64,000 nt of DNA from an uncultured Gammaproteobacteria bacterium (GTDB lineage Bacteria > Patescibacteriota > Microgenomatia > Daviesbacterales > UBA10151): the NCBI GenBank assembly GCA_964551605.1, contig CAZKCV010000001.1, positions 61,992 to 125,991 of the forward strand, given 5' to 3'. Below are positions 9,219 through 59,683 of the stretch, one piece after another. The notes under the pieces are model-generated. The model saw only the letters and a list, made by a program, of their open reading frames with translations. It was not told the DNA's origin and searched no databases. The translations under genes were made by a program, and so were the position numbers. Position 1 is the stretch's first letter; every line of letters begins with the position of its first letter.

Positions 9219-9713
9219 TCAACCTCTAACATTATCGGATTCAATAACCATCACCCAGTCCTCTATCCCGACTTGCTTAATAAAATCTCTTAGTAATCTC
9301 GTGCAATTGATTTTTGAAGCCCAGATGCTTTGCTGCCACTGTTTAAAGCCTAACTGTTTAAGTTTAAACCTCAAAAGATCTCTAGCTTGTCTTCTCTTCT
9401 CTGGAATATCCCACACCACCAACCTCCATTTCCCATCCCATTTTTCATCTCCACTTCTCATTTTGGCCCACAATGCTCTATCTTTACCTGAATCTGTTAA
9501 TCGCAAAAATAACTCTTCATCGCTGACAAATTCAACAAAACCCTTTTCTCTTAAGCGTTTAACCACTTGAGAAAGAACTGACTTTTTAACAGGTCTTTCC
9601 AATAAAGGATTGTAAATAAAATCTTCAAATACTACATATCCATCGATTGATTTCTCTAAAGCTAGCAGAACTAAATCCGTCAAAAACTTACGCTTGCTGG
9701 GAGGCCTTGGCAT
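9219..9713 (-). CDS. PaaX-like transcriptional regulator (short form: wHTH + PaaX middle-domain motif)
   Basis: WDGKWRLVVWDIPEKRRQARDLLRFKLKQLGFKQWQQSIWAS resembles the PaaX WDGKW...PE...R segment. A paralogue lies at 51999-52499. Confidence 0.6.
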   Translation of the reverse strand: MPRPPSKRKFLTDLVLLALEKSIDGYVVFEDFIYNPLLERPVKKSVLSQVVKRLREKGFVEFVSDEELFLRLTDSGKDRALWAKMRSGDEKWDGKWRLVVWDIPEKRRQARDLLRFKLKQLGFKQWQQSIWASKINCTRLLRDFIKQVGIEDWVMVIESDNVRG

Positions 9714-28400: not shown

Positions 28401-28427
28401 GGAAAGATTATAGATCAATATCTGCTC

Positions 28428-28455
28428 TAATTCCTAATTCCTAATTCCTAATTCC
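28428..28455. repeat. (taattcc)x4 perfect 7-bp tandem repeat upstream of ychF
   Basis: ctaattcctaattcctaattcctaattcc. Confidence 0.7.
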
Positions 28456-28516
28456 AGTAAAACTTTAATATGCGGCATGGTTGTACAACAAGGGTTAGTC
28501 CCCAAATGGTCGATAT

Positions 28517-29044
28517 TCATACAAATTTCTTTTCTCCTGCATAAATTGCCACTGACAAAACATTTTCTTCCGGAGTTATTGGGCAATCCCACCTGTCGTT
28601 ATAAGAACTGTATGGATTATAGGCATAATTAAAGTCAACAATTAGCTTACCTCCTTTTTTAGGAATTTGCAGCATCCTGCCATTTTCATAAGTATCCTTT
28701 CCAGTTGTTTGGTCTCTGAATAATAAATAATATTGAAATTGCTCTTGCTCGGGATCTTCAAAAACTAATGCCTCTATTTCTTTCCCCTCGACTGTAAATG
28801 TAATTTTTCCAGCTCTTAAATAAATCTGTTCCTCTCCACCTGTAGTTTTAATTACCACTTTCTCACCGACACCAGAGATATTTTTATCAAGTTCTAATTC
28901 AAAACTTAAACTTGGATTAGGCGGAAAATAATTTAGACCTTTAAACTGTTTCCTTTGCTCTTTGGTTAAAGGAGACTGCTCATCATTTTTCCAAGCCTCA
29001 TCCTTTTGTTTTCTAAATTCTAAAAGTTTCTTTTCGTCGTACAT
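28517..29044 (-). CDS. DUF1684-family protein
   Basis: C-terminal FNYAYNPYSSYNDRWDCPITPEENVLSVAIYAGEKK matches the DUF1684 hallmark as recalled. Confidence 0.65.
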   Translation of the reverse strand: MYDEKKLLEFRKQKDEAWKNDEQSPLTKEQRKQFKGLNYFPPNPSLSFELELDKNISGVGEKVVIKTTGGEEQIYLRAGKITFTVEGKEIEALVFEDPEQEQFQYYLLFRDQTTGKDTYENGRMLQIPKKGGKLIVDFNYAYNPYSSYNDRWDCPITPEENVLSVAIYAGEKKFV

Positions 29045-29055
29045 AATTATTTTTG

Positions 29056-30402
29056 TTATCCAATATCAAAAAATGCTCTTTGTAGCCATTCTGGTAAAGC
29101 AGGGTGGATATAAACTGAATTTGTAATTGCCTCCACTTTTCCATTTGCCTTCATAGCAACTATGGCCTCATGGATTAAAATGGAAGCATTAGGCCCAATA
29201 ATATGAACGCCTAAAATATTATTCTGCTCCGAAACTAACACTTTCGCTAAACCATTTTCCTGCAAAGCTCCACCCATACCTGTATCTTTAAGTTCTGCTT
29301 TACCAACTTTATAAGATATACCTTCTCTCTTAAGCTCTTGTTCTGTTTTTCCAACCCCTCCAACTTGAGGGGAGGAAAAAACTGCATGGCCAATGGCAAA
29401 GGGGTCAAATGGTACTTTTTTATCGGTAAAAGCGTTTCTGATTGCAAAACCTACCTGATCATTGGCTGCATGTCTGAAAGGTAAAATACCAATTATGTCT
29501 CCAAATGCCCATATCCCATCTACATTTGTTTCTAAATACTCGTTTACTTTAATATATCCTTTATCATCTACTTCTACTCCTGTAGTTTTAACGTCCAGTA
29601 TATCTGTATTGGGTGTTCTTCCTGTAGCAACAAGCAGTTGATCTGCTTCTAATTTATCCCCCTCACCTTTAAGTTTTATTGTAAACTTACTATTTTGATA
29701 TGAAACAGCTTCTGCCTGCACATTAAATAAAATTTCGTACTTCTTAGCAAATCCTTTTGTAAACCAAGCCGCAATCTCCTCATCTTCATTAGAAAGCATG
29801 AGATTTCCCCGGACAAGAATTGTTACTTTAGTTCCTAGTGATCCAAAAAAATGAGCGAGCTCTGCAGCGATATAACCTCCACCTATAACTACTAAATGTT
29901 CAGGCTGTTTTTCTAACCTCAAAGCTTTGGTACTATCAAGATATGGTGTAGTACCTAAACCTGGAAGAGGTGGTATTGAGGGTCTAGTCCCACCCACTAT
30001 AAATACTTTACCTGCCTCAATAGTTTCATTACCAACCTGCATCTGTTTTTGACCGATAAATTTACCATGCACTTTGTAAAGAGTCGGATTGCCACTTTTT
30101 CTTACTGCTTGCTCAATTCCGTTTGAATCCGTATCCACTACTTCTGACACTCTTTTAACAATAGATGCAAAATCAATATTTTCAATCTTACTCTTAATGC
30201 CAAATTTCTCACTGTTTTTAATTGTTTCAGCAATATCCGCTGAGTGAATTAGCATCTTTGATGGAATACAACCACGATTTAGACATGTTCCACCCAGCGG
30301 ACCCTCTTCCACTATTGCCACAGACAAACCTTTTTCAGCGGCAAATGAAGCCACCTCTAAACCTGCTCCCGAACCTACAACAATTACATCAAACTTTTTC
30401 AT
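29056..30402 (-). CDS. class I pyridine-nucleotide-disulfide oxidoreductase (dihydrolipoyl dehydrogenase/glutathione-reductase-like)
   Basis: FAD site DVIVVGSGAGL. Redox-active CxxxxC in GGTCLNRGCIPSK. NAD(P) site VVIGGGYIAAE. C-terminal HP...E dyad (IHPALPE). No C-terminal Cys pair, so not MerA. Confidence 0.8.
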   Translation of the reverse strand: MKKFDVIVVGSGAGLEVASFAAEKGLSVAIVEEGPLGGTCLNRGCIPSKMLIHSADIAETIKNSEKFGIKSKIENIDFASIVKRVSEVVDTDSNGIEQAVRKSGNPTLYKVHGKFIGQKQMQVGNETIEAGKVFIVGGTRPSIPPLPGLGTTPYLDSTKALRLEKQPEHLVVIGGGYIAAELAHFFGSLGTKVTILVRGNLMLSNEDEEIAAWFTKGFAKKYEILFNVQAEAVSYQNSKFTIKLKGEGDKLEADQLLVATGRTPNTDILDVKTTGVEVDDKGYIKVNEYLETNVDGIWAFGDIIGILPFRHAANDQVGFAIRNAFTDKKVPFDPFAIGHAVFSSPQVGGVGKTEQELKREGISYKVGKAELKDTGMGGALQENGLAKVLVSEQNNILGVHIIGPNASILIHEAIVAMKANGKVEAITNSVYIHPALPEWLQRAFFDIG

Positions 30403-30418
30403 AGTAGATAACTAAATT

Positions 30419-30601
30419 TTAGCATATCTCACAGCTATGCTCCTGCATCTTATCAGCTGTTTTTGCTTTTAAGCCACACTTTGAGCAGATCATTGAATGT
30501 TCTTGTTGTTGAACCGCTTGTTGAGTTGGATGATTATGCTCTTTATGTATTTCACAAGGGCATGAACATGTCATACAAGTATTTGTATTTTGATCGTTCA
30601 T
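30419..30601 (-). CDS. small Cys/His-rich protein (8 Cys in 60 aa; putative metal- or redox-active)
   Basis: CMTCSCPC ... CSKCG ... CEIC. Strong SD aaaggagg 9 nt upstream. Confidence 0.45.
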   Translation of the reverse strand: MNDQNTNTCMTCSCPCEIHKEHNHPTQQAVQQQEHSMICSKCGLKAKTADKMQEHSCEIC

Positions 30602-30814
30602 TGTTTTAATATACCTCCTTTCTATTTATATAAATCTGTGTCTGGATGAAATGCGGCCCAGGCAAACCAGAATAATCTAATAGGTTTGTTGATTAAGCTG
30701 ATTATCAACTTTAAATCTACTCTCAAAGGTAGTTGCAATTACAATTAAAGATACAGCAATGAAAATATTAAATGGTTTCATAATTTTGCAAAAAATTTCA
30801 GGCTCTGCTTATGA

Positions 30815-31183
30815 TTACTTAAATCTTTCAAGAAAGCTTGAAAATTTGTTTTTCTTCTTACCGTTACTTAAGGAGTAACAAATTAATTGCCCACAGCGGT
30901 AACTTTCCACCAGTCCTAATTTTTTTAGATCAGCTAGCGCATGGGATACAGCAGATTGGGAAAGGCCTAAAATTTGAGTCATATCTGTTACAGGCATTGC
31001 TTTAACTTTTGCGAGCAGCAGGTAGATCTTAGATTTAGTAGGATCAGAAAGATTATGTATGATTCTTAAAAAGCCTTCTTCTTCAACAGAAAATTTTATT
31101 CTTTTTTGTAAGGATAAAATCTTGGAGTCTATTATATAATGAGGATGCCCCTTATGCGGTTGTACATATGAACGATTGAGCAT
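30815..31183 (-). CDS. ArsR/SmtB-family metalloregulatory transcriptional repressor
   Basis: wHTH region IYLLLAKVKAMPVTDMTQILGLSQSAVSHALADLKKLGLVESYRCGQLICYSL. Confidence 0.75.
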   Translation of the reverse strand: MLNRSYVQPHKGHPHYIIDSKILSLQKRIKFSVEEEGFLRIIHNLSDPTKSKIYLLLAKVKAMPVTDMTQILGLSQSAVSHALADLKKLGLVESYRCGQLICYSLSNGKKKNKFSSFLERFK

Positions 31184-31348
31184 ATATTAAAGTTTATCAT
31201 AGCCTGGTGTGCTGTCAAGATCTAAATGGTCTACAGGTTAAAATTTACTGATGGTAGTTTTGAGGTGTGTTGTGTTTCCCTACTCTCATGAATCATAGTG
31301 TACCAAAAACCTTCCTTTTTTGCCTGATCATGTTTATCCAAGGCAACC

Positions 31349-31678
31349 TTGTTTTCTCTTAAGGTTTTTGGTATACTTCATTGCACAAAGATGATCATTG
31401 GCCCCTCAAAAACAACAGATGACAGGAAGCTAGCTCTCTTAAAAGCTCAGGCAGCAAAAGATAAATTATTTAAGCTGGTGGTTAAAATTATCAGCTGGGA
31501 ATCAGGTTCTTTAGACAGTGCCGTAGTTAAATCATTAAATAAAATTACCGAGACAGAGTGGTTAAATTATCGAAAGTATACTTTAAATATTTCCACTTCT
31601 CAAAGCCTGGATAAGGTTAAGGAAAAATTATCCCAAACTTACAAAAACATCCAAGCCCACGGCGGCTTCGCTAAATAG
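31349..31678 (+). CDS. hypothetical protein
   Basis: ORF only. Confidence 0.25.
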   Translation: MFSLKVFGILHCTKMIIGPSKTTDDRKLALLKAQAAKDKLFKLVVKIISWESGSLDSAVVKSLNKITETEWLNYRKYTLNISTSQSLDKVKEKLSQTYKNIQAHGGFAK

Positions 31679-39608: not shown

Positions 39609-40520
39609 CTAAGGATACTTCATTCTAGCCTCCTCGGGGCTCAAAACTTCCCTTATAGAATGATCGTCATTAATTACTGCCACCTGCTGGGTATGGACAC
39701 TGTCATGGGCTAAATTTTTAATCTGGATGGCCGGGTGAACAGACCGCCAGAAATAATAGACAAATTCTTTAATTTGCCCTTTGCTCATCCCCTTTCCCTG
39801 TGCCCGCAAAACTTCCTCGGCCTGGTCTCTCCATTTCAAAGATATCCGGTAGTCAGGCACATATAATACATTCATAAAATCGATCATCTCCCACAGGGGT
39901 AAGTATTCATCTAATTTCCGATTAATATCCTGGGCAAACTGGATGTGTTCAGGTGTATCCAAAGCCGGCAAACCGCTTTCAAAAACAGACTCATCCTCCA
40001 CCCTTCTGGCACCCAGCATCCACCCGTCATAAAGAATAAAATCCGGTTTTTTTGAAATGGTTTTCCATCCTACCCGATCCCCATCTCCCTGCTGTGCTCC
40101 CTTATCATATATGGGAATTTTCACTTCCATGCCGTCTGTCATTGTCTGCAAATCTTCTAAGTTTTGTATAGCCAACGGGATATCGTGGGTAGCACCCCTT
40201 CGTATAAATCTGGGGTCTTTTTCCCTTAATCTATTGAGTTCCTGATGGGTAACATAGTGGTCATCAATAGACAAAGAAATTGAGGAGTAACCAAAATGCG
40301 AAAGCAGAATTTCCATAACCTCACCCTGCGTGGTTTTACCCGCCCCCTGAATGGCTGAAACCCCTACAATTAGACCATTTGAACTAACCCTTTGCCGTTT
40401 GATAGCGATTAATTTCTCAACATATGGATAGTAATATAGGTCCAAATCACGTTCTAAACCCTCCCGTGATATTTCCGGCCGTTTGGCAAAAAAAGCATCA
40501 AAATTAATACCTTCAATCAT
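39609..40520 (-). CDS. P-loop kinase of the uridine-kinase/PRK superfamily resembling D-glycerate 3-kinase (GLYK/TDA10-like)
   Basis: Walker A GVSAIQGAGKTTQ. RRGATHDIPL and IPIYDKGAQQGDGDR blocks recall the GLYK RG-PGTHD / YDKS...GDR motifs (from memory). Confidence 0.5.
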   Translation of the reverse strand: MIEGINFDAFFAKRPEISREGLERDLDLYYYPYVEKLIAIKRQRVSSNGLIVGVSAIQGAGKTTQGEVMEILLSHFGYSSISLSIDDHYVTHQELNRLREKDPRFIRRGATHDIPLAIQNLEDLQTMTDGMEVKIPIYDKGAQQGDGDRVGWKTISKKPDFILYDGWMLGARRVEDESVFESGLPALDTPEHIQFAQDINRKLDEYLPLWEMIDFMNVLYVPDYRISLKWRDQAEEVLRAQGKGMSKGQIKEFVYYFWRSVHPAIQIKNLAHDSVHTQQVAVINDDHSIREVLSPEEARMKYP

Positions 40521-41293
40521 AGTTTTTGATTAATTTGGCTGGCAACTTTTTTACTCAGCACTAATACCTTGTTTAAGGGAATATTCAATTCTGTTATAAA
40601 TTCTCCGGCCACCATTTTATTTAAAGGATAGGTTAAAACCAGTTTTATCTTTGGCAGCATTTCTTTGTGGCTACCGATAATAATAAAATGAATACCCTTC
40701 CCTTTTATAAATTCCTTTGTTTTTTCCACAATCAGCTTAAGATGACTTCGTAAATCATCTTCTATATGGCGGAAGATTTTGTCATCTCTGCCATAATCTA
40801 TTTTTTTTGCTTTTACCTTTTGGGGGACAAGACCTACAAAAATATCCTTGTGTTCTTCAATTTCCCCTAAATGAACCGTGAAAAACCTGGCTTTTGACCG
40901 GTCTGCCAAGAGTACCAGGTATTTGCGGTATGTGTTTAAGGCTTTCTCTATCGGTTGCAAATATGGTGAATGCGAAATCACAGCTTTAGGGGCAAGGAAA
41001 AATTCAAACCTTAACACTTCCCATAAATTCTTGCCTGCAGAAAAGAATGCGGTTGTCCGGATATTTGACCGGTCAAATGATTCATGTAAATACTTTTCAA
41101 TACGGGCAATATCTTTTTGCCAAAACCTTTGCTCCTCTTCTGATAAATTCTGGTGGATTAAAGAATGTAACTGGGAAAGACAAAAGGAAAGTTGCGGCGG
41201 CCTTTTTTCAGCACAACCTAAGGAAACTGTCAAAATGGGAAAGGTTGCGTTTCTATAAGCCTTAAGTCTTGCTACCACATTAACTTCTTCCAT
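40517..41293 (-). CDS. hypothetical protein, possibly eRF1/Pelota-like (baeRF-type) fold
   Basis: No GGQ motif. Weak architectural resemblance only. Start moved to the ATG at 41293, preceded by GAGGA. 4-bp overlap with the kinase gene and 1-bp gap to hpf. Confidence 0.3.
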   Translation of the reverse strand: MEEVNVVARLKAYRNATFPILTVSLGCAEKRPPQLSFCLSQLHSLIHQNLSEEEQRFWQKDIARIEKYLHESFDRSNIRTTAFFSAGKNLWEVLRFEFFLAPKAVISHSPYLQPIEKALNTYRKYLVLLADRSKARFFTVHLGEIEEHKDIFVGLVPQKVKAKKIDYGRDDKIFRHIEDDLRSHLKLIVEKTKEFIKGKGIHFIIIGSHKEMLPKIKLVLTYPLNKMVAGEFITELNIPLNKVLVLSKKVASQINQKL

Positions 41294-41294
41294 A

Positions 41295-41702
41295 TTACCA
41301 TCCTCTGACAGAACTGTGATCCGGATATTCGCTCTCATCGGGAAAATGCAAGTCTTTATATTTTTCCAGTTTCTCAAAAAGACGTTCAAAACCTAAATTA
41401 ATGCACTCATCAATGGTCATCCCTTTAAAATGTGCATAAAAACTGTTTTTATTAAGCCGGAAAGCCATTGAGCCTTCAAAAAAGGCAAGCTCGGGTTTCA
41501 GATCAGCATAACTTCTATGCGGGTGGGGGTGGACTCTCGGGGGGTGGTATTTGTCAATATTTTTTTTGATAGTTAACCTAAGTACAATCAAGTCGCTTGC
41601 TACATTAGGAAGTGCCTGCGTAATCTTTGTTAAATGCTTATTTATGTGGTTACTTAACTTATCTGAAACCCGGCAATTTTTAGCAGTCAGTTGAAAAATC
41701 AT
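41295..41702 (-). CDS. hpf: ribosome hibernation promoting factor (HPF/YfiA family) with His/Pro-rich insertion
   Basis: MIFQLTAKNCRVSDKLSNHINKHLTKI...VLRLTIKK and FEGSMAFRL...FYAHFKGMTIDECINLGFERLFEKLEKYKD match the HPF beta-alpha-beta-beta-beta-alpha fold. Insertion YHPPRVHPHPH. Confidence 0.65.
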   Translation of the reverse strand: MIFQLTAKNCRVSDKLSNHINKHLTKITQALPNVASDLIVLRLTIKKNIDKYHPPRVHPHPHRSYADLKPELAFFEGSMAFRLNKNSFYAHFKGMTIDECINLGFERLFEKLEKYKDLHFPDESEYPDHSSVRGW

Positions 41703-51961: not shown

Positions 51962-51999
51962 TTAGGCCGATCGGTCTATTTGTCTAAAGTTAGAGATTC
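51962..51999. promoter_or_regulatory. direct-repeat copy (operator-like) between the PaaX-like paralogue and the prs start
   Basis: ttaggccgatcggtctatttgtctaaagttagagattc. Partner at 52525-52562 (ttgggccgatcgtcaagtttgactaaagtcagatattc) contains palindromes GTCAAnnTTGAC and TGACTnnAGTCA. Confidence 0.5.
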
Positions 52000-52499
52000 T
52001 AAGCTACATCAGTACCAACCACTACCCTCACCCAATCAGACAAACCAACCTCTTTAATAAAATTCCGCAAGGGACTTGTTACATCCTTTTTACCGGCCCA
52101 GACACTTTTCTGCCAAGGCTCAAACTCCCACTCCCTAAATTTACTCCGCAAGATTTTTCTTAATTTCCGGTGCTTTTCCGGGATATCAAAAATGACAATC
52201 CTCCACTTCCCATCCCATTTATCCTCTGCTAAAAGCTTTTTTATTATTGCTTCCTCCCTACCTCTATCTGTTAATTTCAACATAATTTTCCCACCGTCTT
52301 TTTTGGTTTCAATAAAACCTTTTTCACGCAAATCCCTAACCGCTTGATAAAGAGCTCCGTAATTTATTTCTCTTGGATCTCGTCCCGGATAAACATACCA
52401 GTGGGAGTTGTAGGCAAAATCAATTAGCAAAACACCACTCTGAATCGATTTCTCCAAACCAAGAAGCAAAAAATAACTTAATGAATTTTTCTTAATCAT
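51999..52499 (-). CDS. PaaX-like transcriptional regulator (paralogue of 9219-9713)
   Basis: WDGKWRIVIFDIPEKHRKLRKILRSKFREWEFEPWQKSVWAG. N-terminal wHTH. Confidence 0.6.
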   Translation of the reverse strand: MIKKNSLSYFLLLGLEKSIQSGVLLIDFAYNSHWYVYPGRDPREINYGALYQAVRDLREKGFIETKKDGGKIMLKLTDRGREEAIIKKLLAEDKWDGKWRIVIFDIPEKHRKLRKILRSKFREWEFEPWQKSVWAGKKDVTSPLRNFIKEVGLSDWVRVVVGTDVA

Positions 52500-56040: not shown

Positions 56041-57576
56041 TTAATGTCTAAAAGCCCTCCTGCCGGTAAAGACCATTGGTATACCGGCTTTATCAGCTGC
56101 GTCAATTGAGGCCTGATCATTTACAGAACCCCCCTGCTCCAGTATATCTCCGATCCCGCATTTTGCCGACATCTCCACGGAATCTTCAAAAGGAAAGAAA
56201 CTATCACTTACTAATATACCACCCCTTGCTGATTTTCCTGCTTGTTCCAATGCGATTTTAGTAGCACCTACCCGGGATGTTTGACCGGAACCAATTCCCC
56301 GGGTCATCGGGATATCTTTATCAATTACAATGACAGCATTGGATCTGACTGCCTTAACTGCCTTAAAACCAAATTTCATCTGTTCCAGTTGTTTCGCAGT
56401 CGGTTTTTTCTTGGTTACAACTTTCCAATCCTTAAAACTCTTTTCTACATCGTCATCAAAATCCTGAAGCAGAACTGCTCCGGCAAAGTATTTCAAATCC
56501 CAGTTTTCGCTTCTTCTAATTTCTATCGGTCCGAAGGTGTAAACTCCCATGCTCTTTCTGACTTTCTTCAAAAGCTCTAAAGCATCTTCAGAAATTGAAG
56601 GTACTGCCACTATATCAGTATTTCCCTCCCGTTCATTTTTAAAAGTGGCAATATTTTTTGCAGCTTTTAAATCCATGTGTTTATTTAATACGACTACTCC
56701 GCCAAAGGCTGAAACCGGATCTGCTTCAGTAGCCCGGTACAATGCTTCATATGCATCTTTGCCGGTTGCAATCCCACAAGGGCTTAAATGTTTTATTACA
56801 GCAGCAGCCGGTTCCTTAAATTGCCTGACTGTTTCCAGTCCGGCATGAATATCACCAATGTTAGTGCCACTTAGCTCCCTGCCCCAGAGATGTTTTAATT
56901 TAGAAAAAGGAGAATTTGTTTTTGGCATCAGGTATAAAGCTCCCTCCTGATGTGGATTTTCACCGTAACGGAGGACATTAGTCTTCCGAAGAGGAACTGT
57001 TAACTCTTTCGGAAACTTCTCTTCCGAGAAAAAGTTACCGATTTGGGAATCATAAAATGACAGATGATAAAACGCTTTAGCTGCCATCTTTTGTCTTAAT
57101 TCCTTTGATACTTTTGATACCTTAACTGCCTTTGATACTTCTTCATAATCTTTGGGGGTTACTACCACTAAGACATTCTCATAATTTTTAGCCGCTGCCC
57201 TAATCATGGTTGGCCCCCCGACATCTATTGTTTCGATACCGGGTTTTTCTTCAAAAGGGTAAAGATTACAAACCACGATATCAATTTGCGGCATCCCCAA
57301 TTTCCGGGCCTCTTTTACATGCTTGGGGTTTTTTCTGTCAAACAAAATTCCTGACTCAATCTGGAAACTGATGGTTTTCATCCGGCCGTCAAATGCGTCC
57401 CGGGGGTTTCCGGTGATTTCATCAATGGGAATAACTTTTATGCCTTCTTTTTTTAATAACTCGAAAGTCCCGCCGGTAGAAATAATTGCATAACCTGCTT
57501 TTTCCAAAACTTTTGCAAAATCAGCTATTCCGCTTTTATCATAAACGCTAACTAATGCAAATTTTTGAGAGCTCAT
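56041..57576 (-). CDS. purH: bifunctional AICAR transformylase / IMP cyclohydrolase
   Basis: MGS-like N-domain ALVSVYDKSGIADFAKVLEKAGYAIISTGGT and AICARFT C-domain, 511 aa. Confidence 0.9.
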   Translation of the reverse strand: MSSQKFALVSVYDKSGIADFAKVLEKAGYAIISTGGTFELLKKEGIKVIPIDEITGNPRDAFDGRMKTISFQIESGILFDRKNPKHVKEARKLGMPQIDIVVCNLYPFEEKPGIETIDVGGPTMIRAAAKNYENVLVVVTPKDYEEVSKAVKVSKVSKELRQKMAAKAFYHLSFYDSQIGNFFSEEKFPKELTVPLRKTNVLRYGENPHQEGALYLMPKTNSPFSKLKHLWGRELSGTNIGDIHAGLETVRQFKEPAAAVIKHLSPCGIATGKDAYEALYRATEADPVSAFGGVVVLNKHMDLKAAKNIATFKNEREGNTDIVAVPSISEDALELLKKVRKSMGVYTFGPIEIRRSENWDLKYFAGAVLLQDFDDDVEKSFKDWKVVTKKKPTAKQLEQMKFGFKAVKAVRSNAVIVIDKDIPMTRGIGSGQTSRVGATKIALEQAGKSARGGILVSDSFFPFEDSVEMSAKCGIGDILEQGGSVNDQASIDAADKAGIPMVFTGRRAFRH

Positions 57577-58664
57577 GTTAGTATTTTATTTAATTTCCCC
57601 TTTTCTATTGCTTCTTTTATTTCCAAAGCTACCCGTTTTCCCATTGAGATATTTTCTCCATATAAATACATACCATAAGGGGTGGCAAAAATACCAGGGG
57701 ATCCGGGCATCCGGGGAGATACATCAAAAACAATGATCTCCTTTTTAGGTGGGCCGGCAGTAATCATAGTTTGCAGACCAAAGGGGCCAATCACACCAGG
57801 AGCAACCATTTTCTGAGAAGCCTGTACAAATCTTTCTCCCATTGCAAATGCATCTTCAAGTAAAGATTCCAGAACAGTCACTGCAATATGTCCGGCTTCT
57901 TCATACTTTATTCTTCCACCCATGTCCCGGAATTGCTGCTGGTATTCTGGAGATAATTTCGAAAGTCCTTCATGGTTAGTCTGGCGCCGTGTATCGGTAC
58001 CAATTAATTCCAGTCGCTGATTAATTGGATCATAAAAGAAATTAAAGTTAACTTGCACTCCAACGATAAACTCTTCAATAACAGCGTGTTTTAAATGTTC
58101 CTCTGTAATTTCCCCTTTTCCAATTCTTTCCTCTATTTTTTTCTCATATTCCTTAAAATTATTAACTAAGAAAAATGCCCTTTCAAAACCTCTTTCTTTT
58201 TCCAGAACTTTTACAATACAAAGCCTGTCTATATCTTTAGGATCTTTAAATTGTTTGGGGTAGCGGATTTTGGCAGCATCCAATAAATCATATTGATTTG
58301 GTTTTACACCCCGCTCTTCAGCTTTAAGCAAAAACCTGTTTCCAAACATCGGCACTTTAAATTTTTTCTCAATGGCGTTGTAATCATTAATGTAAACTTC
58401 AAATGACCTGTGGGGAATAAAAATAGAATTTCTCTTCAATAATTCTTGTTGGACTTTTTCACTGAGTATCTCTTTGAATTCATCCAATATAATTACTTCA
58501 TCTACACAACCTAATTGGCCTTCAGACGCGTAATATTTTTTGTATGTTTTCTCTCTGCCCTTTTTACAAATAACTAATGTCTTAAATCCTAAATCCTTTG
58601 CGCCGCGGCACACATCTAAGGCAGAATGACTTCCTAAAACGGCAATTGTATACTGTTTGCCCAT
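57573..58664 (-). CDS. purP: PurP-family ATP-grasp protein (archaeal-type FAICAR synthetase paralogue)
   Basis: YTIAVLGSHSALDVCRGAKDLGF, PHRSFEVY, NFFYDPI. Paralogue of the adjacent gene. Confidence 0.75.
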   Translation of the reverse strand: MGKQYTIAVLGSHSALDVCRGAKDLGFKTLVICKKGREKTYKKYYASEGQLGCVDEVIILDEFKEILSEKVQQELLKRNSIFIPHRSFEVYINDYNAIEKKFKVPMFGNRFLLKAEERGVKPNQYDLLDAAKIRYPKQFKDPKDIDRLCIVKVLEKERGFERAFFLVNNFKEYEKKIEERIGKGEITEEHLKHAVIEEFIVGVQVNFNFFYDPINQRLELIGTDTRRQTNHEGLSKLSPEYQQQFRDMGGRIKYEEAGHIAVTVLESLLEDAFAMGERFVQASQKMVAPGVIGPFGLQTMITAGPPKKEIIVFDVSPRMPGSPGIFATPYGMYLYGENISMGKRVALEIKEAIEKGKLNKILT

Positions 58665-59683
58665 TAGTCCAGCACCTCTTTTAGTTTATTCATTTTTATC
58701 GCATCCTTAATCTCTTTTGCAATACGTCTTCCGGTTGACATTGGTTCATCATAATTTAAATAAGTATAAGGCGAGCCATTAATAAAACAATTAGTTCCTG
58801 CTACAATTCTGGCAGAAATTTCTATCACATAAATTTCTTCAGTTGAGGTAATAATGGCTTCTAAACAAAAAGGGCCAAAAAGACCCTTAGTTGATATAAG
58901 CTTTTGGGAACTCTTAACTACCCGTTCAGCCATAGCCACAGCTTCTGCTAAAAGGGATTCCCTGATAGCCATTGGGATATTAGCTACCACTTCAAAAGAA
59001 GGCTCTATATTTAAACCTCTCTGGTTTTTGGCAGGAATCCTGCCAAGGGAATCAACATTTGTTTCATAGCGTTTATCAATACTCATGATCTCCACTCTTT
59101 TGGTTAAAGGAGAATAGAAGAAATGAAAATATACCGGCACTCCGATGACATATTCCTGGACGATAAATCTTTCTTCACTGTAGTTTTTTAACTTCTCATC
59201 AAACTCTTTTTGGTTTCTGGCAGTAAAATAACCCTTACCCCCGGAAGCACCATAAGACTTTACAATTACCGGGCGGTCAATCTTATCGCCTCTTTTAAAG
59301 CGATGCGGCACTTTAATCCCTGATTCCTCCATCCAGGTCCTCTGCATCTTGCGGTTTTCCTCCCAATCCAAAACTTTCTTGTTGCCAAAATACAAAGCAT
59401 TCATATTTTTATTTTGGTCCAGCCCTAAGTAAGCTACAAATGAGCCATGAGGAATAATAATTGCATTTTTCTTGATAAGTTGTTTTTCAAGAGATGGAAA
59501 ATTTTTCCAGGAGTCGATTTCTAAAACTTCATCAATAAAATTACTGTAGGAATTGTAAAGAGTGAATCGATCCGGTGTGGCTACTACTGCAGTTTTAAAA
59601 CCCTCGTCTTTTGCCCCTTTAAGAATTTGCAGGGCGGAGTGAGAACCTAAAGTGACAATGGTATAGTCTTTTATAATTCCCAT
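58664..59683 (-). CDS. purP: 5-formaminoimidazole-4-carboxamide ribonucleotide synthetase PurP (archaeal-type, formate/ATP-dependent)
   Basis: YTIVTLGSHSALQILKGAKDEGF, PHGSFVAYLG, FHFFYSPL, MSIDKRYETNVDSLGRIPAKNQ and GPFCLEAI align along the full length with the M. jannaschii PurP sequence as recalled. Confidence 0.85.
   Translation of the reverse strand: MGIIKDYTIVTLGSHSALQILKGAKDEGFKTAVVATPDRFTLYNSYSNFIDEVLEIDSWKNFPSLEKQLIKKNAIIIPHGSFVAYLGLDQNKNMNALYFGNKKVLDWEENRKMQRTWMEESGIKVPHRFKRGDKIDRPVIVKSYGASGGKGYFTARNQKEFDEKLKNYSEERFIVQEYVIGVPVYFHFFYSPLTKRVEIMSIDKRYETNVDSLGRIPAKNQRGLNIEPSFEVVANIPMAIRESLLAEAVAMAERVVKSSQKLISTKGLFGPFCLEAIITSTEEIYVIEISARIVAGTNCFINGSPYTYLNYDEPMSTGRRIAKEIKDAIKMNKLKEVLD

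What the first reader, a model, noticed from the sequence alone, without database searches (positions are those of the whole stretch)
28517..31183. ArsR-family regulator, 8-Cys mini-protein, flavoprotein disulfide reductase and DUF1684: putative thiol/metal redox module
All four genes lie on the minus strand in this order: an ArsR/SmtB metalloregulator, a 213-bp spacer, a 60-aa protein with 8 Cys and several His (CMTCSCPC...CSKCG...CEIC) behind a strong SD, a class-I pyridine-nucleotide-disulfide oxidoreductase 16 bp further on (GGTCLNRGCIPSK, HP..E dyad, no MerA-type C-terminal Cys pair), and DUF1684 11 bp after that. A Lpd/GR-like enzyme has no obvious substrate in an organism unlikely to own 2-oxoacid dehydrogenase complexes. 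The Cys-rich mini-protein is a plausible dedicated redox partner or metal chaperone, with expression gated by a metal- or redox-sensing ArsR.
Basis: inference. Interest (0 to 1): 0.6.

Follow-up and report, generated by a model that had tools for sequence, protein, structure and literature searches.

The report
Eroded thiol-redox operon, CPR bacterium
The four genes are real, but they are the surviving core of a longer stress operon for keeping sulfur (thiol) groups reduced; it is typical of one group of tiny uncultured bacteria, and this genome has deleted its membrane-export half.

Summary
All four ORFs sit at the stated coordinates. The organism is a CPR bacterium (Microgenomates: Daviesbacteria/Levybacteria-like).

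In relatives the operon is longer: ArsR, membrane-anchored thioredoxin(s), a CcdA::DUF3179 fusion, small Trx/Grx-like proteins, a zinc-finger mini-protein, the flavoprotein reductase, DUF1684, a 126-aa protein and a DSP phosphatase. The window's "213-bp spacer" is a deletion scar. It still holds recognisable fragments of the thioredoxin and CcdA::DUF3179 genes. A DSP phosphatase remnant lies after DUF1684.

The conserved core is mini–reductase–DUF1684: the mini-protein is upstream in 14 of 21 loci and DUF1684 downstream in 17 of 22.

- **Reductase:** closest to mycothione reductases. It has CxxxxC plus the His-Glu dyad and only two Cys. It is distinct from a true MerA paralog in the same lineage.
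- **Context:** distant orthologs flank gshA-gshB, and one relative inserts a G6PD::6PGD fusion next to it. No 2-oxoacid-dehydrogenase or glycine-cleavage gene appears in the 50 window ORFs scanned.
- **Mini-protein:** derives from a tandem C2H2 zinc-finger micro-protein. Here the first finger is replaced by an unclassified Cys4His3 module.
- **ArsR:** lacks both alpha3N and alpha5 sites. It has a conserved wing C-x4-C and an N-terminal His motif.

Most likely this is an NADPH-driven disulfide-reducing stress module. The substrate is unproven.

The parts
31191..31218 (-). Sigma-70-like promoter TTGACA-16-TAAACT (TG-extended). Its -10 box ends 7 nt before the ArsR ATG, suggesting a leaderless or near-leaderless operon transcript.
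   Evidence: 10 of 12 matches. The same TTGACA-16/18-TAnAnT architecture, ending 6-8 nt before the ATG, is present in four orthologous loci (L006, L011, L019, L020; read). Function is inferred.
30815..31183 (-). ArsR/SmtB-family winged-helix regulator, 122 aa, first gene of the operon. It lacks alpha3/alpha3N Cys and alpha5 Asp/His ligands. It has a conserved N-terminal H-x2-H-P-H motif and a wing C-x4-C (RCGQLICY; C96 and C101).
   Evidence: HTH_5; HTH_metalloreg 66 > 55. (alignment to SmtB and NmtR). (conservation in orthologs). (dN/dS 0.14-0.16).
30602..30814 (-). Deletion scar, not a spacer. It contains three remnants: (1) the N-terminus of the membrane-anchored thioredoxin (MKPFNIFIAVSLIVIA, about 30782-30733); (2) the linker of CcdA::DUF3179 (IATTFESRFKVDNQLNQQ, 30740-30685), fused in frame to the first; (3) the out-of-frame C-terminus of CcdA::DUF3179 (PIRLFWFAWAAFHPDTDLYK*, 30684-30623). 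The Shine-Dalgarno GGAGG lies at 30618-30614.
   Evidence: tblastn: 83% over 18 aa, and 85-95% over 19-20 aa. blastn mapping onto L006, L009, L011, L016 and L020: 72-85% nucleotide identity, with the segments 1.1 kb and 0.84 kb apart in L006.
30419..30601 (-). 60-aa Cys/His-rich micro-protein. The N-terminal module is C-x2-C-x-C-x-C-x2-H-x2-H-x-H (unclassified). The C-terminal half is homologous to a C2H2 zinc finger (CSKCG-x11-H), with the last His replaced by C-x2-C.
   Evidence: alignments. (only 29 relatives among 1.84 billion representatives). (relatives pass the Pfam zf-C2H2 cutoffs; the window protein does not). (synteny). (dN/dS 0.2-0.3).
29056..30402 (-). Group-1 flavoprotein disulfide reductase, 448 aa. 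It has the redox Cys pair C40/C45 and the His-Glu dyad (IHPALPE), no further Cys, and an Arg at the NADPH 2'-phosphate position (ILVRG). It is Mtr/GR/Lpd-like and scores below every NCBIfam equivalog cutoff.
   Evidence: (dN/dS 0.06-0.11).
28517..29044 (-). DUF1684 protein, 175 aa, with a single invariant Cys (WDCPITPEEN). The first Cys of the haloarchaeal C-x7-C motif is Ser here.
28427..28508 (-). Pseudogene remnant of the dual-specificity phosphatase that ends the operon in relatives (HLGTNPCCTTMPHIKVLLELGIR). It is interrupted by a 7-nt tandem repeat (x4.1, 28427-28455). The 126-aa gene that normally lies between DUF1684 and the phosphatase is absent.
   Evidence: 61% over 23 aa to L020 DSPc residues 18-40. 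(71-80% nucleotide identity to L009, L011, L016 and L020). (TRF). (DSPc Pfam hit on the L020 protein).

Best explanation
This is the surviving cytoplasmic core of an ArsR-headed thiol-disulfide stress operon typical of Daviesbacteria/Levybacteria (CPR).

**The full version in relatives.** It reads: ArsR; extracytoplasmic, membrane-anchored thioredoxin(s); the CcdA::DUF3179 transmembrane electron conduit; small cytoplasmic Trx-like and mycoredoxin-like proteins; the zinc-finger micro-protein; the reductase; DUF1684; a 126-aa protein; and a DSP phosphatase.

**Proposed mechanism.**
1. NADPH reduces the FAD of the reductase.
2. The C40/C45 dithiol, assisted by the His-Glu dyad, reduces a disulfide that can reach the active site directly. 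This is most likely a low-molecular-weight disulfide, or a mixed disulfide carried on a small partner. The enzyme has no auxiliary C-terminal redox centre.
3. DUF1684, nearly always the next gene, acts as a single-cysteine thiol relay or carrier.
4. The micro-protein is a zinc/thiolate accessory: a redox-sensitive zinc site, or a metal buffer.
5. ArsR represses the operon from a promoter at its own start and is released by a thiol-reactive signal, either an oxidant or a thiophilic metal.

**What happened in this genome.** At least two deletions upstream and one downstream removed the envelope branch. The removed genes are thioredoxin, CcdA::DUF3179, the 126-aa protein and the phosphatase. This placed the ArsR gene next to the micro-protein gene.

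**Shown:** the gene content, the scar, the conservation, family affinities and purifying selection.

**Inferred:** the electron path, NADPH use, the substrate class, and the roles of DUF1684, the micro-protein and ArsR.
For: **Operon architecture in relatives.**

**Scar.**

**Core conservation (my tally).**
- The mini-protein lies within 0.8 kb upstream of the reductase in 14 of 21 assessable Microgenomates loci.
- DUF1684 lies directly downstream, or after one inserted gene, in 17 of 22.

**Reductase.**
- Its best solved relatives are mycothione reductases (274 bits, against 238 for the best Lpd).
- C39/C44, H442/E447 and R199 of Mtr are matched (read against PMC10910545).
- It has only two Cys.
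- The NAD(P)H domain is closest to NADPH enzymes.
- A separate paralog in the same lineage is a true MerA: TIGR02053 509 > 454, with a C-terminal SCCI.

**Thiol context.**
- Orthologs at 44-46% identity sit directly before gshA (358 > 294) and gshB (336 > 272).
- In Thermoplasmatales and Chloroflexota the ortholog is followed by a Grx-like protein. In two of those three loci an FTR-like protein comes next.
- The Grx-like gene of the operon scores best as mycoredoxin (72.5, below the 89.5 cutoff).
- DUF3179 occurs as a UxxC selenoprotein elsewhere (PMC9312934).

**NADPH supply.**
- A G6PD::6PGD fusion lies between the reductase and DUF1684 in L090.
- Transaldolase and Ni-SOD lie near the cluster in L089.

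**DUF1684.**
- Haloferax HVO_1043 is an OxsR oxidative-stress target proposed as a thiol relay (PMC9426492).
- Four of five haloarchaeal plasmid loci place DUF1684 beside sulfur or thiol genes.
- In L089 it follows a different flavoprotein disulfide reductase.

**Regulation and selection.**
- Purifying selection acts on all four genes.
- The promoter upstream of ArsR is conserved. No minus-strand promoter or terminator was predicted between ArsR and DUF1684.
Against: - No activity, cofactor or substrate has been measured.
- The reductase scores below every curated NCBIfam cutoff. Its single best model is a 'dihydrolipoyl dehydrogenase' subfamily (506 against 634).
- The second Arg of the Mtr/GR R-x5-R NADPH motif is Ser.
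- The window genome has lost the Trx/Grx/CcdA partners, so the pathway as drawn cannot operate there. The remaining genes may work with partners encoded elsewhere, or be on their way out.
- The micro-protein is unlinked from the reductase in one related genome (L001-L004).
- DUF1684 is absent beside all ~60 more distant reductase orthologs.
- Bacterial plasmid DUF1684 loci show no consistent redox context.
- No low-molecular-weight thiol pathway is encoded in the window.
Confidence: 0.55

Rival explanations
1. Metal detoxification module. ArsR senses a thiophilic metal. The Cys/His-rich micro-protein binds or delivers the metal, like a metallothionein or an NmerA-like chaperone. The flavoprotein reduces the metal ion, in the manner of RclA or MerA.
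For: - The regulator passes the ArsR/SmtB metalloregulator model.
- The micro-protein has 8 Cys and 7 His. Its CxxCxCxC-HxxHxH module recurs alone or duplicated in other 42-59 aa proteins, as expected for a metal-binding unit.
- MerA, MerC-like and cupredoxin genes are interleaved with the cluster in relatives (L005, L007, L008, L091).
Against: - The reductase keeps the His-Glu dyad of disulfide-reducing enzymes and lacks the C-terminal Cys pair. The MerA paralogs in the lineage have FPTLSE plus SCCI instead.
- RclA and Har models score far lower (220-248 bits) than Lpd/Mtr models (402-506 bits).
- The ancestral micro-protein is a plain 2 x C2H2 zinc finger.
- The constant operon partners are Trx, Grx and CcdA. 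There is no metal efflux pump.
- ArsR lacks the alpha3N and alpha5 metal sites.
Confidence: 0.15
2. Ordinary dihydrolipoyl dehydrogenase (E3). It serves a lipoylated protein encoded elsewhere in the genome, and the neighbouring genes are unrelated passengers.
For: - The top NCBIfam hits are PRK06292 'dihydrolipoyl dehydrogenase' models (506 and 469 bits).
- Lpd structures are strong PDB matches (238 bits).
- Actinobacterial Mtrs cluster with archaeal 'DLD' sequences of unknown role (PMC10910545).
Against: - All Lpd models score below their cutoffs.
- There is an Arg, not an acidic residue, at the end of the NAD(P)-domain beta2 strand. That Lpd carries an acidic residue there is from my own knowledge; only shows the Arg shared with Mtr and MerA.
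- No E1, E2, H-, T- or P-protein, or lipoate ligase/synthase, appears among the 50 window ORFs scanned. None appears among the genes with Pfam annotation in the related loci fetched with annotation.
- The enzyme is tightly and repeatedly linked to Trx/Grx/CcdA, DUF1684 and, in one locus, G6PD::6PGD.
Confidence: 0.1
3. A decaying locus. After loss of the envelope branch, the four remaining genes are functionally orphaned and simply not yet degraded.
For: - There are at least three independent deletions and a slipped 7-nt repeat in and around the locus.
- Pseudogene fragments of the 126-aa gene also occur in L085/L086, and a truncated reductase in L019.
- Pairwise dN/dS mostly reflects history before the deletions.
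Against: - All four ORFs are full length, with all catalytic and conserved residues intact.
- Minimal versions of the cluster are common in other genomes: mini–reductase–DUF1684 in L085, and reductase–DUF1684 alone in L013. This suggests that the core works on its own.
- The promoter and the SD are intact.
Confidence: 0.1

Closest known systems
Mycothione reductase (Mtr) with mycoredoxin, Actinobacteria
   Same: It is a homodimer-type group-1 flavoprotein disulfide reductase with CxxxxC, the His-Glu dyad and the first NADPH Arg. Mtr structures are its best PDB matches. The operon's Grx-like gene in relatives scores best as mycoredoxin.
   Different: It scores below both Mtr cutoffs (402 < 501; 356 < 636). 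The second NADPH Arg is Ser. By my reading of the alignment against the paper, only one of the three Gly described for the alpha3 substrate helix appears matched. No mycothiol genes are in the window. The organism is a CPR bacterium. The partners DUF1684 and the zinc-finger micro-protein are not part of the Mtr system.
Glutathione reductase
   Same: Same fold and catalytic residues. Orthologs at 44-46% identity in Omnitrophota and Planctomycetes lie directly upstream of gshA-gshB.
   Different: GR models score only 225-293 bits against cutoffs of 480-606. No gshA or gshB is near any Microgenomates copy.
Dihydrolipoyl dehydrogenase (E3 / 'archaeal DLD' group)
   Same: It gives the highest NCBIfam scores (PRK06292 subfamily). 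It belongs to the sequence neighbourhood that PMC10910545 describes as archaeal DLDs clustering with Mtr.
   Different: It is below the cutoffs. It has an NADPH-type Arg. There is no lipoate-dependent partner in the window or in related loci. The operon context is thiol redox.
TrxB-TrxA-CcdA/DsbD-ResA/CcmG transmembrane reducing pathway
   Same: The full operon in relatives has the same logic: a cytoplasmic NAD(P)H reductase, a small redoxin, a CcdA membrane conduit and an extracytoplasmic thioredoxin.
   Different: The reductase is a high-Mr GR/Mtr-type enzyme, not low-Mr TrxB. CcdA is fused to DUF3179. In the window the whole membrane and extracytoplasmic part has been deleted.
SmtB-SmtA (ArsR-family repressor plus small Cys/His metal-binding protein)
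   Same: An ArsR/SmtB regulator is encoded next to a small Cys/His-rich protein that includes a zinc-finger-like element.
   Different: There is no homology to SmtA or BmtA (no Pfam hit). The adjacency is a secondary result of deletions. The ArsR lacks SmtB's alpha3N and alpha5 sites.
Zinc-finger micro-proteins of Haloferax volcanii / prokaryotic C2H2 fingers
   Same: It is a <70-aa protein built of CxxCG-type zinc-binding units. Relatives pass the Pfam zf-C2H2 cutoffs. The class is described in PMC11241148 and PMC6562870.
   Different: It is bacterial (CPR). It has tandem C2H2 spacing rather than two C(P)XCG knuckles. In the window the first finger is replaced by a Cys4His3 module with no family. 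It is fixed next to a disulfide reductase.
DUF1684 protein HVO_1043 of the Haloferax OxsR regulon; PDB 2lnu, 2lok, 4dlh
   Different: The proposed C-x7-C pair is S-x7-C in all Microgenomates copies, which implies single-thiol chemistry. The tight pairing with a group-1 reductase is specific to this CPR lineage.

Membership tests
ArsR/SmtB metalloregulators | Winged helix-turn-helix of the HTH_5 / HTH_metalloreg type | tested here: met
   PF01022 at 7e-11. NF033788 at 66.1 bits against a cutoff of 55.
ArsR/SmtB metalloregulators | A recognised sensing site: alpha3/alpha3N Cys (ELCVCDL-type) or alpha5 Asp/His/Glu ligands | tested here: not met
   In the alignment to SmtB, MPVTDM replaces LCVGDL, and N107/K replace D104/H106. 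The conserved candidates instead are H-x2-H-P-H near the N-terminus and C96-x4-C101 in the wing.
Group-1 flavoprotein disulfide reductases (GR/Lpd/Mtr/TryR type) | FAD and NAD(P)H Rossmann domains plus a dimerisation domain; redox-active CxxxxC; C-terminal His-Glu dyad | tested here: met
   Pyr_redox_2 at 209 bits, Pyr_redox at 71 and Pyr_redox_dim at 85. CLNRGC and IHPALPE align to C39/C44 and H442/E447 of Mtr.
Dihydrolipoyl dehydrogenase (E3) | Score above a curated Lpd model cutoff | tested here: not met
   506 < 634, 469 < 592, 400 < 619 and 361 < 409.
Dihydrolipoyl dehydrogenase (E3) | Lipoylated partner (E2 or H-protein) and lipoate attachment genes in the genome | tested here: inconclusive
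   None appears among the 50 window ORFs scanned or among the Pfam-annotated genes of related loci. The rest of the genome was not available.
Mycothione reductase | Score above a curated Mtr cutoff; R-x5-R NADPH motif; mycothiol biosynthesis in the organism | tested here: not met
   402 < 501 and 356 < 636. The motif is R-x5-S. No mshA, mshB or mshC is in the window. A MshA/MshC/BshB-like cluster in related genome L001 is below the MshA, MshC and BshB cutoffs; its Cys-ligase-like gene passes only the cysS model.
Mercuric reductase MerA | C-terminal Cys pair, Tyr/Phe in place of the dyad His, score above the TIGR02053 cutoff | tested here: not met
   332 < 454. The enzyme ends ...IHPALPEWLQRAFFDIG with no extra Cys. 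The paralog in L005 meets all three features (509 > 454; FPTLSE; SCCI).
C2H2 zinc fingers (Pfam zf-C2H2 / zf-C2H2_4) | C-x2-C-x12-H-x3-5-H spacing and a score above the Pfam gathering cutoff | tested here: not met
   The window protein has no zinc-finger hit at E <= 1. Its C-terminal half is C-x2-C-x12-H-x-C-x2-C. Homologs P0012 and P0015 and the L012 and L027 proteins do pass (29-41 bits, above 25-27). The window protein aligns to them. It is therefore a divergent derivative, not a demonstrable member.
DUF1684 (PF07920) | Pfam model above cutoff and the fold of PDB 2lnu | tested here: met
DUF1684 as dithiol relay (proposal of PMC9426492) | Conserved C-x7-C pair | tested here: not met
   It is S-x7-C in all 29 aligned Microgenomates sequences. 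Only C154 is invariant.
CcdA/DsbD-dependent transmembrane reducing pathway | Intact DsbD_TM protein and an extracytoplasmic thioredoxin encoded with the reductase | tested here: not met
   Present in relatives (DsbD_TM at 46 bits, DUF3179 at 298 bits, Thioredoxin at 38 bits). In the window only 50-60-nt fragments remain.

The most novel reading that the evidence does not exclude
Daviesbacteria/Levybacteria run a previously undescribed, self-contained NADPH-to-envelope reducing system. In it, an Mtr-like flavoprotein replaces thioredoxin reductase. DUF1684 is a new single-cysteine redox relay that works with flavoprotein disulfide reductases, which would give this orphan fold its first function. 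The fast-evolving zinc-finger / Cys4His3 micro-protein is a zinc-thiolate switch or substrate adaptor for the enzyme. The system may use a GlcN-Cys-type low-molecular-weight thiol made by the MshA/MshC/BshB-like cluster seen in a related genome.
Probability: 0.2. Interest if true: 0.7.

Novelty: new variant of a known kind. Interest (0 to 1): 0.45.

Why it matters
- **A starting point for CPR redox biology.** CPR bacteria have tiny genomes. I found nothing in the paper library on a low-molecular-weight thiol in this group. A conserved, regulated operon built around an Mtr/GR-like reductase gives a concrete experimental handle.
- **An assayable partner for DUF1684.** It links the orphan family DUF1684 (solved structures, no function) to a specific enzyme partner that can be tested.
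- **The archaeal 'DLD' group.** It bears on the uncharacterised archaeal 'DLD' group that clusters with mycothione reductase (PMC10910545).
- **Reductive evolution caught in the act.** The window copy shows which half of the operon a streamlined genome keeps.
- **Limits.** All the parts belong to known superfamilies and nothing here overturns current understanding.

Tried and rejected
- **AlphaFold2 of the micro-protein.** The 8-sequence alignment gave pLDDT 55. That is too poor for a fold search. Only a beta-beta-alpha hint appears at residues 37-54.
- **Operator search.** Inverted repeats in 30590-31420 are weak (72-90% over 10-18 nt). None lies at the ArsR promoter, and the ones inside the 'spacer' fall in pseudogene fragments. 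The promoter spacers of the five orthologs are not conserved. No operator is claimed.
- **MerA reading.** Rejected on residues and on the presence of a separate true MerA paralog.
- **Arsenic reading (ArsR plus a phosphatase-type arsenate reductase).** No ArsB or Acr3 was recognised at any locus, and the phosphatase is a pseudogene here.
- **Metallothionein (SmtA) homology.** No Pfam hit.
- **LMW-thiol cluster of L001.** Absent from the window.
- **Exact look-up of the window micro-protein's contig.** It failed: not on record.
- **DUF1684 context on plasmids.** Haloarchaeal loci lean towards sulfur and thiol genes. Bacterial loci do not.
- **CPR literature search.** Searches for mycothiol or lipoamide dehydrogenase in CPR returned nothing relevant.
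- **Caveat on gene maps.** Gene calls in fetched loci came from my own longest-ORF script, so small genes and start codons in those maps are approximate.

Full report
**1. Observation**

The ORF list shows four minus-strand ORFs at exactly the reported coordinates:
- 30815-31183 (122 aa)
- 30419-30601 (60 aa)
- 29056-30402 (448 aa)
- 28517-29044 (175 aa)

The gaps are 213, 16 and 11 bp. A GGAGG lies 12 nt before the 60-aa ORF.

Pfam and NCBIfam give these calls:
- ArsR family: HTH_5, and HTH_metalloreg at 66 bits against a cutoff of 55.
- Pyridine-nucleotide disulfide oxidoreductase with a dimerisation domain.
- DUF1684 (131 bits).
- Nothing for the 60-aa protein.

The quoted motifs are present: GGTCLNRGCIPSK, and an HP..E dyad as IHPALPE. 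The enzyme has only two cysteines, so there is no MerA-type C-terminal pair.

**2. Organism**

The four proteins occur verbatim in an NCBI assembly on a 222,933-bp contig. The reductase has 71-88% identical orthologs in about 20 MAGs. Most are labelled Candidatus Daviesbacteria, Levybacteria (Levyibacteriota), Roizmanbacteria or Microgenomates. DUF1684 has 448 homologs. All 120 listed are at least 74% identical, and every named one is Daviesbacteria, Levybacteria or Microgenomates.

The window is therefore from a CPR (Patescibacteria) bacterium. Its gene content fits this: housekeeping genes, purine synthesis, proteases and a P-type ATPase.

**3. The locus is an eroded version of a longer operon**

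I called ORFs in the 80 loci found with the reductase, clustered them and mapped families. I added six further loci retrieved through the micro-protein and DUF1684.

In L011 and L020 the operon reads:
1. ArsR
2. one or two membrane-anchored thioredoxins (WCPMC / WCQTC; PF00085)
3. a ~555-aa fusion of a CcdA/DsbD transmembrane domain with DUF3179 (DsbD_TM 46 bits, DUF3179 298 bits)
4. sometimes a zf-UBP protein
5. a small Trx-like protein (CEHC)
6. a glutaredoxin-like protein (WCPDC; best NCBIfam model mycoredoxin, 72.5 bits, below the 89.5 cutoff)
7. the micro-protein
8. the reductase
9. DUF1684
10. a 126-aa protein with no family
11. a dual-specificity phosphatase

L006, L009, L012, L016, L090 and L091 carry the same backbone with some of these genes absent. 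Variants add an FMN reductase, a Crp regulator, a DsbA-like protein, or a mer module. The mer module is ArsR, a MerC-like protein and a true MerA (TIGR02053 509 > 454).

The window's 213-bp 'spacer' contains three remnants, in order:
- The first 16 codons of the thioredoxin gene.
- Fused in frame to these, an 18-codon piece of the CcdA::DUF3179 linker. It is 83% identical to residues 237-254 of the L006 protein.
- Out of frame, the last 19-20 codons of that gene (85-95% identical).

In L006 these three segments lie 1.1 kb and 0.84 kb apart. L087 and L088 show the immediate precursor arrangement, in which CcdA::DUF3179 runs straight into the micro-protein gene.

Downstream of DUF1684, the 126-aa gene is missing. 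Only about 23 codons of the phosphatase remain (61% identical). They are followed by a 7-nt repeat present 4.1 times.

So the ArsR gene's adjacency to the micro-protein gene is a product of deletion, not design.

**4. What is conserved**

These tallies are my own counts.
- Among Microgenomates loci where the flank is present, the micro-protein gene lies within 0.8 kb upstream of the reductase in 14 of 21.
- DUF1684 lies directly downstream, or after one inserted gene, in 17 of 22. The inserted gene is MerC-like in L007 and a G6PD::6PGD fusion in L090.
- None of the ~60 more distant reductase orthologs (57% identity or less) has DUF1684 within 6 kb.
- ArsR orthologs (69-74% identical) head the cluster in L006, L011, L019, L020 and L091.

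Pairwise dN/dS of the window genes against relatives is 0.06-0.11 (reductase), 0.06-0.16 (DUF1684), 0.14-0.16 (ArsR) and 0.2-0.3 (micro-protein). All four have been under purifying selection.

**5. The reductase**

It falls below every curated NCBIfam cutoff:
- Best is a 'dihydrolipoyl dehydrogenase' subfamily, 506 against 634.
- Mycothione reductase scores 402 against 501.
- MerA scores 332 against 454.
- GR scores 293 against 480.

Among solved structures the best matches are mycothione reductases (8qcj, 274 bits), ahead of the best Lpd (238 bits).

The alignment to Mtr shows the redox cysteines, the His-Glu dyad and the first Arg of the NADPH R-x5-R motif. The second Arg is Ser (read against PMC10910545). 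The isolated NAD(P)H domain is closest to NADPH-using Mtr and MerA, and to the class-I reductases 8ajk/8ajj.

The Mtr paper also notes that Mtrs cluster with a group of archaeal 'DLD' sequences of unknown role. Given its scores, I suspect the window enzyme belongs to that neighbourhood, but I did not test this.

Context elsewhere supports a thiol-disulfide role:
- In Omnitrophota and Planctomycetes, orthologs at 44-46% identity sit immediately upstream of gshA (358 > 294) and gshB (336 > 272).
- In Thermoplasmatales and Chloroflexota, the ortholog is followed by a Grx-like protein. In two of those three loci a ferredoxin-thioredoxin-reductase-like protein comes next.
- In L090, a G6PD::6PGD fusion is inserted between the reductase and DUF1684. 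These are the two NADPH-producing steps of the pentose phosphate pathway.
- In L089, transaldolase follows the cluster and a Ni-SOD is nearby.

With no auxiliary redox centre, the substrate must reach C40/C45 directly. That favours a small disulfide or a flexible Cys-bearing peptide (inference).

No E1, E2, glycine-cleavage or lipoate-attachment gene is present among the 50 window ORFs scanned. None is present among the Pfam-annotated genes of related loci.

**6. DUF1684**

The only literature link found is Haloferax HVO_1043. It is a top ChIP-seq target of the oxidative-stress regulator OxsR. The authors grouped it with thiol-relay genes because of a C-x7-C motif (PMC9426492). In all Microgenomates copies the first Cys is Ser and a single Cys (WDCPITPEEN) is invariant.

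On haloarchaeal plasmids, four of five loci place DUF1684 beside sulfur or thiol genes:
- a CoADR-like flavoprotein with a class-V aminotransferase and DJ-1
- TusA/DsrE/YeeE
- thioredoxin
- serine acetyltransferase

Three bacterial plasmid loci show no such pattern. In L089, DUF1684 follows a different flavoprotein disulfide reductase. That enzyme is 34% identical to the window enzyme and has no dyad His. This argues for a link to this enzyme class rather than to one paralog.

**7. The micro-protein**

It has only 8 close homologs. A profile search finds 29 relatives among 1.84 billion representatives.

The commoner form in relatives carries two canonical C2H2 fingers. Several of these pass the Pfam cutoffs. 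In the window the first finger is replaced by CMTCSCPCEIHKEHNH. In the second, the final His is replaced by C-x2-C.

The Cys4His3 module also occurs alone or duplicated in unrelated 42-59-aa proteins, and it has no Pfam family. All four module combinations exist among close relatives, so this is a rapidly shuffling metal-binding micro-protein.

In one genome (L001-L004) it is not next to the reductase. Its role is not established.

**8. ArsR and regulation**

Aligned to SmtB and NmtR, the protein lacks the alpha3 Cys and the alpha5 Asp/His ligands. Conserved candidates are H-x2-H-P-H near the N-terminus and C96-x4-C101 in the beta-wing.

A TTGACA-16-TAAACT promoter ends 7 nt before the ArsR ATG. 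The same layout is found in four orthologous loci, which suggests a leaderless transcript. No minus-strand promoter or terminator is predicted between ArsR and DUF1684. The four genes are therefore probably one transcript (inference). No convincing palindromic operator was found.

**9. Verdict**

The locus is best described as the eroded cytoplasmic core of a lineage-typical thiol-disulfide stress operon. The enzyme is best described as an Mtr/GR-like, probably NADPH-dependent, disulfide reductase of unknown substrate.

The E3 reading, the metal-reduction reading and the 'decaying remnant' reading remain possible at lower probability. This is a new variant of known kinds of system. The open points of real interest are the DUF1684 partnership and the micro-protein.

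Noticed in passing
L001:1781-5486 (GCA_964396715.1, contig CAYNFQ010000004.1): A related CPR genome clusters four genes:
- a GT4 glycosyltransferase (best model MshA, 290 < 462)
- a histidine phosphatase
- a short 402-aa CysRS-like ligase (cysS 381 > 340, but covering only model positions 1-378 of 466; MshC 318 < 485)
- a PIG-L deacetylase (BshB1 99 < 182)

This is the gene set expected for a mycothiol- or bacillithiol-like low-molecular-weight thiol. It is not present in the window.
   Followed up: partly
L005:9275-11498; L008:1263-3000; L006:4069-5916: The same lineage carries a separate mer-like module: an ArsR-type regulator, a MerC-like membrane protein, and a core MerA (TIGR02053 509 > 454, C-terminal SCCI, no NmerA domain). 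A Crp-family gene often follows it.
   Followed up: partly
L090:6610-8997: A 795-aa fusion of glucose-6-phosphate dehydrogenase and 6-phosphogluconate dehydrogenase is inserted between the reductase and DUF1684 in a Levybacteria genome.
   Followed up: no
window 57573-58664 and 58664-59683: Two tandem archaeal-type PurP-like genes (DUF1246 + DUF1297, ATP-grasp) lie within what looks, from ORF starts and Pfam hits on neighbouring genes, like a purine-biosynthesis block. This is unusual for a bacterium.
   Followed up: no
window 9219-9713 and 51999-52499: Two small paralogous proteins (164 and 166 aa) carry the PaaX central Cas2-like domain. They lie far apart in the window. Their function is unknown.
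   Followed up: no
window 28427-28455: A perfect 7-nt tandem repeat (CTAATTC x 4.1 on the plus strand) lies inside the phosphatase pseudogene remnant, directly upstream of the YchF gene.
   Followed up: yes
P0020, P0024, P0028, P0029, P0030, P0035, P0036, P0039 (metagenomic proteins): The motif C-x-A-C-x-C-P-C-x2-H-K-E-H-x-H occurs once or twice in stand-alone 42-59-aa proteins with no Pfam family. It looks like an undescribed Cys4His3 metal-binding mini-module.
   Followed up: partly
L027:139-324 (Nitrososphaeraceae MAG): A 61-aa tandem C2H2 zinc-finger protein clusters with the CPR micro-protein family. It lies about 460 bp from an archaeal ortholog of the reductase (45% identity) and is transcribed divergently from it. 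This is a single case and could be coincidence.
   Followed up: no
window 40517-41389: A 290-aa protein matches baeRF_family10 (bacterial archaeo-eukaryotic release-factor-like). It lies beside a 303-aa ORF with no family.
   Followed up: no
window 31349-31678 (+): A 109-aa plus-strand ORF with no Pfam hit fills the gap between the ArsR promoter region and the TspO gene. A terminator-like hairpin on the plus strand (31339-31351) overlaps its start. Whether it is a real gene was not tested.
   Followed up: no
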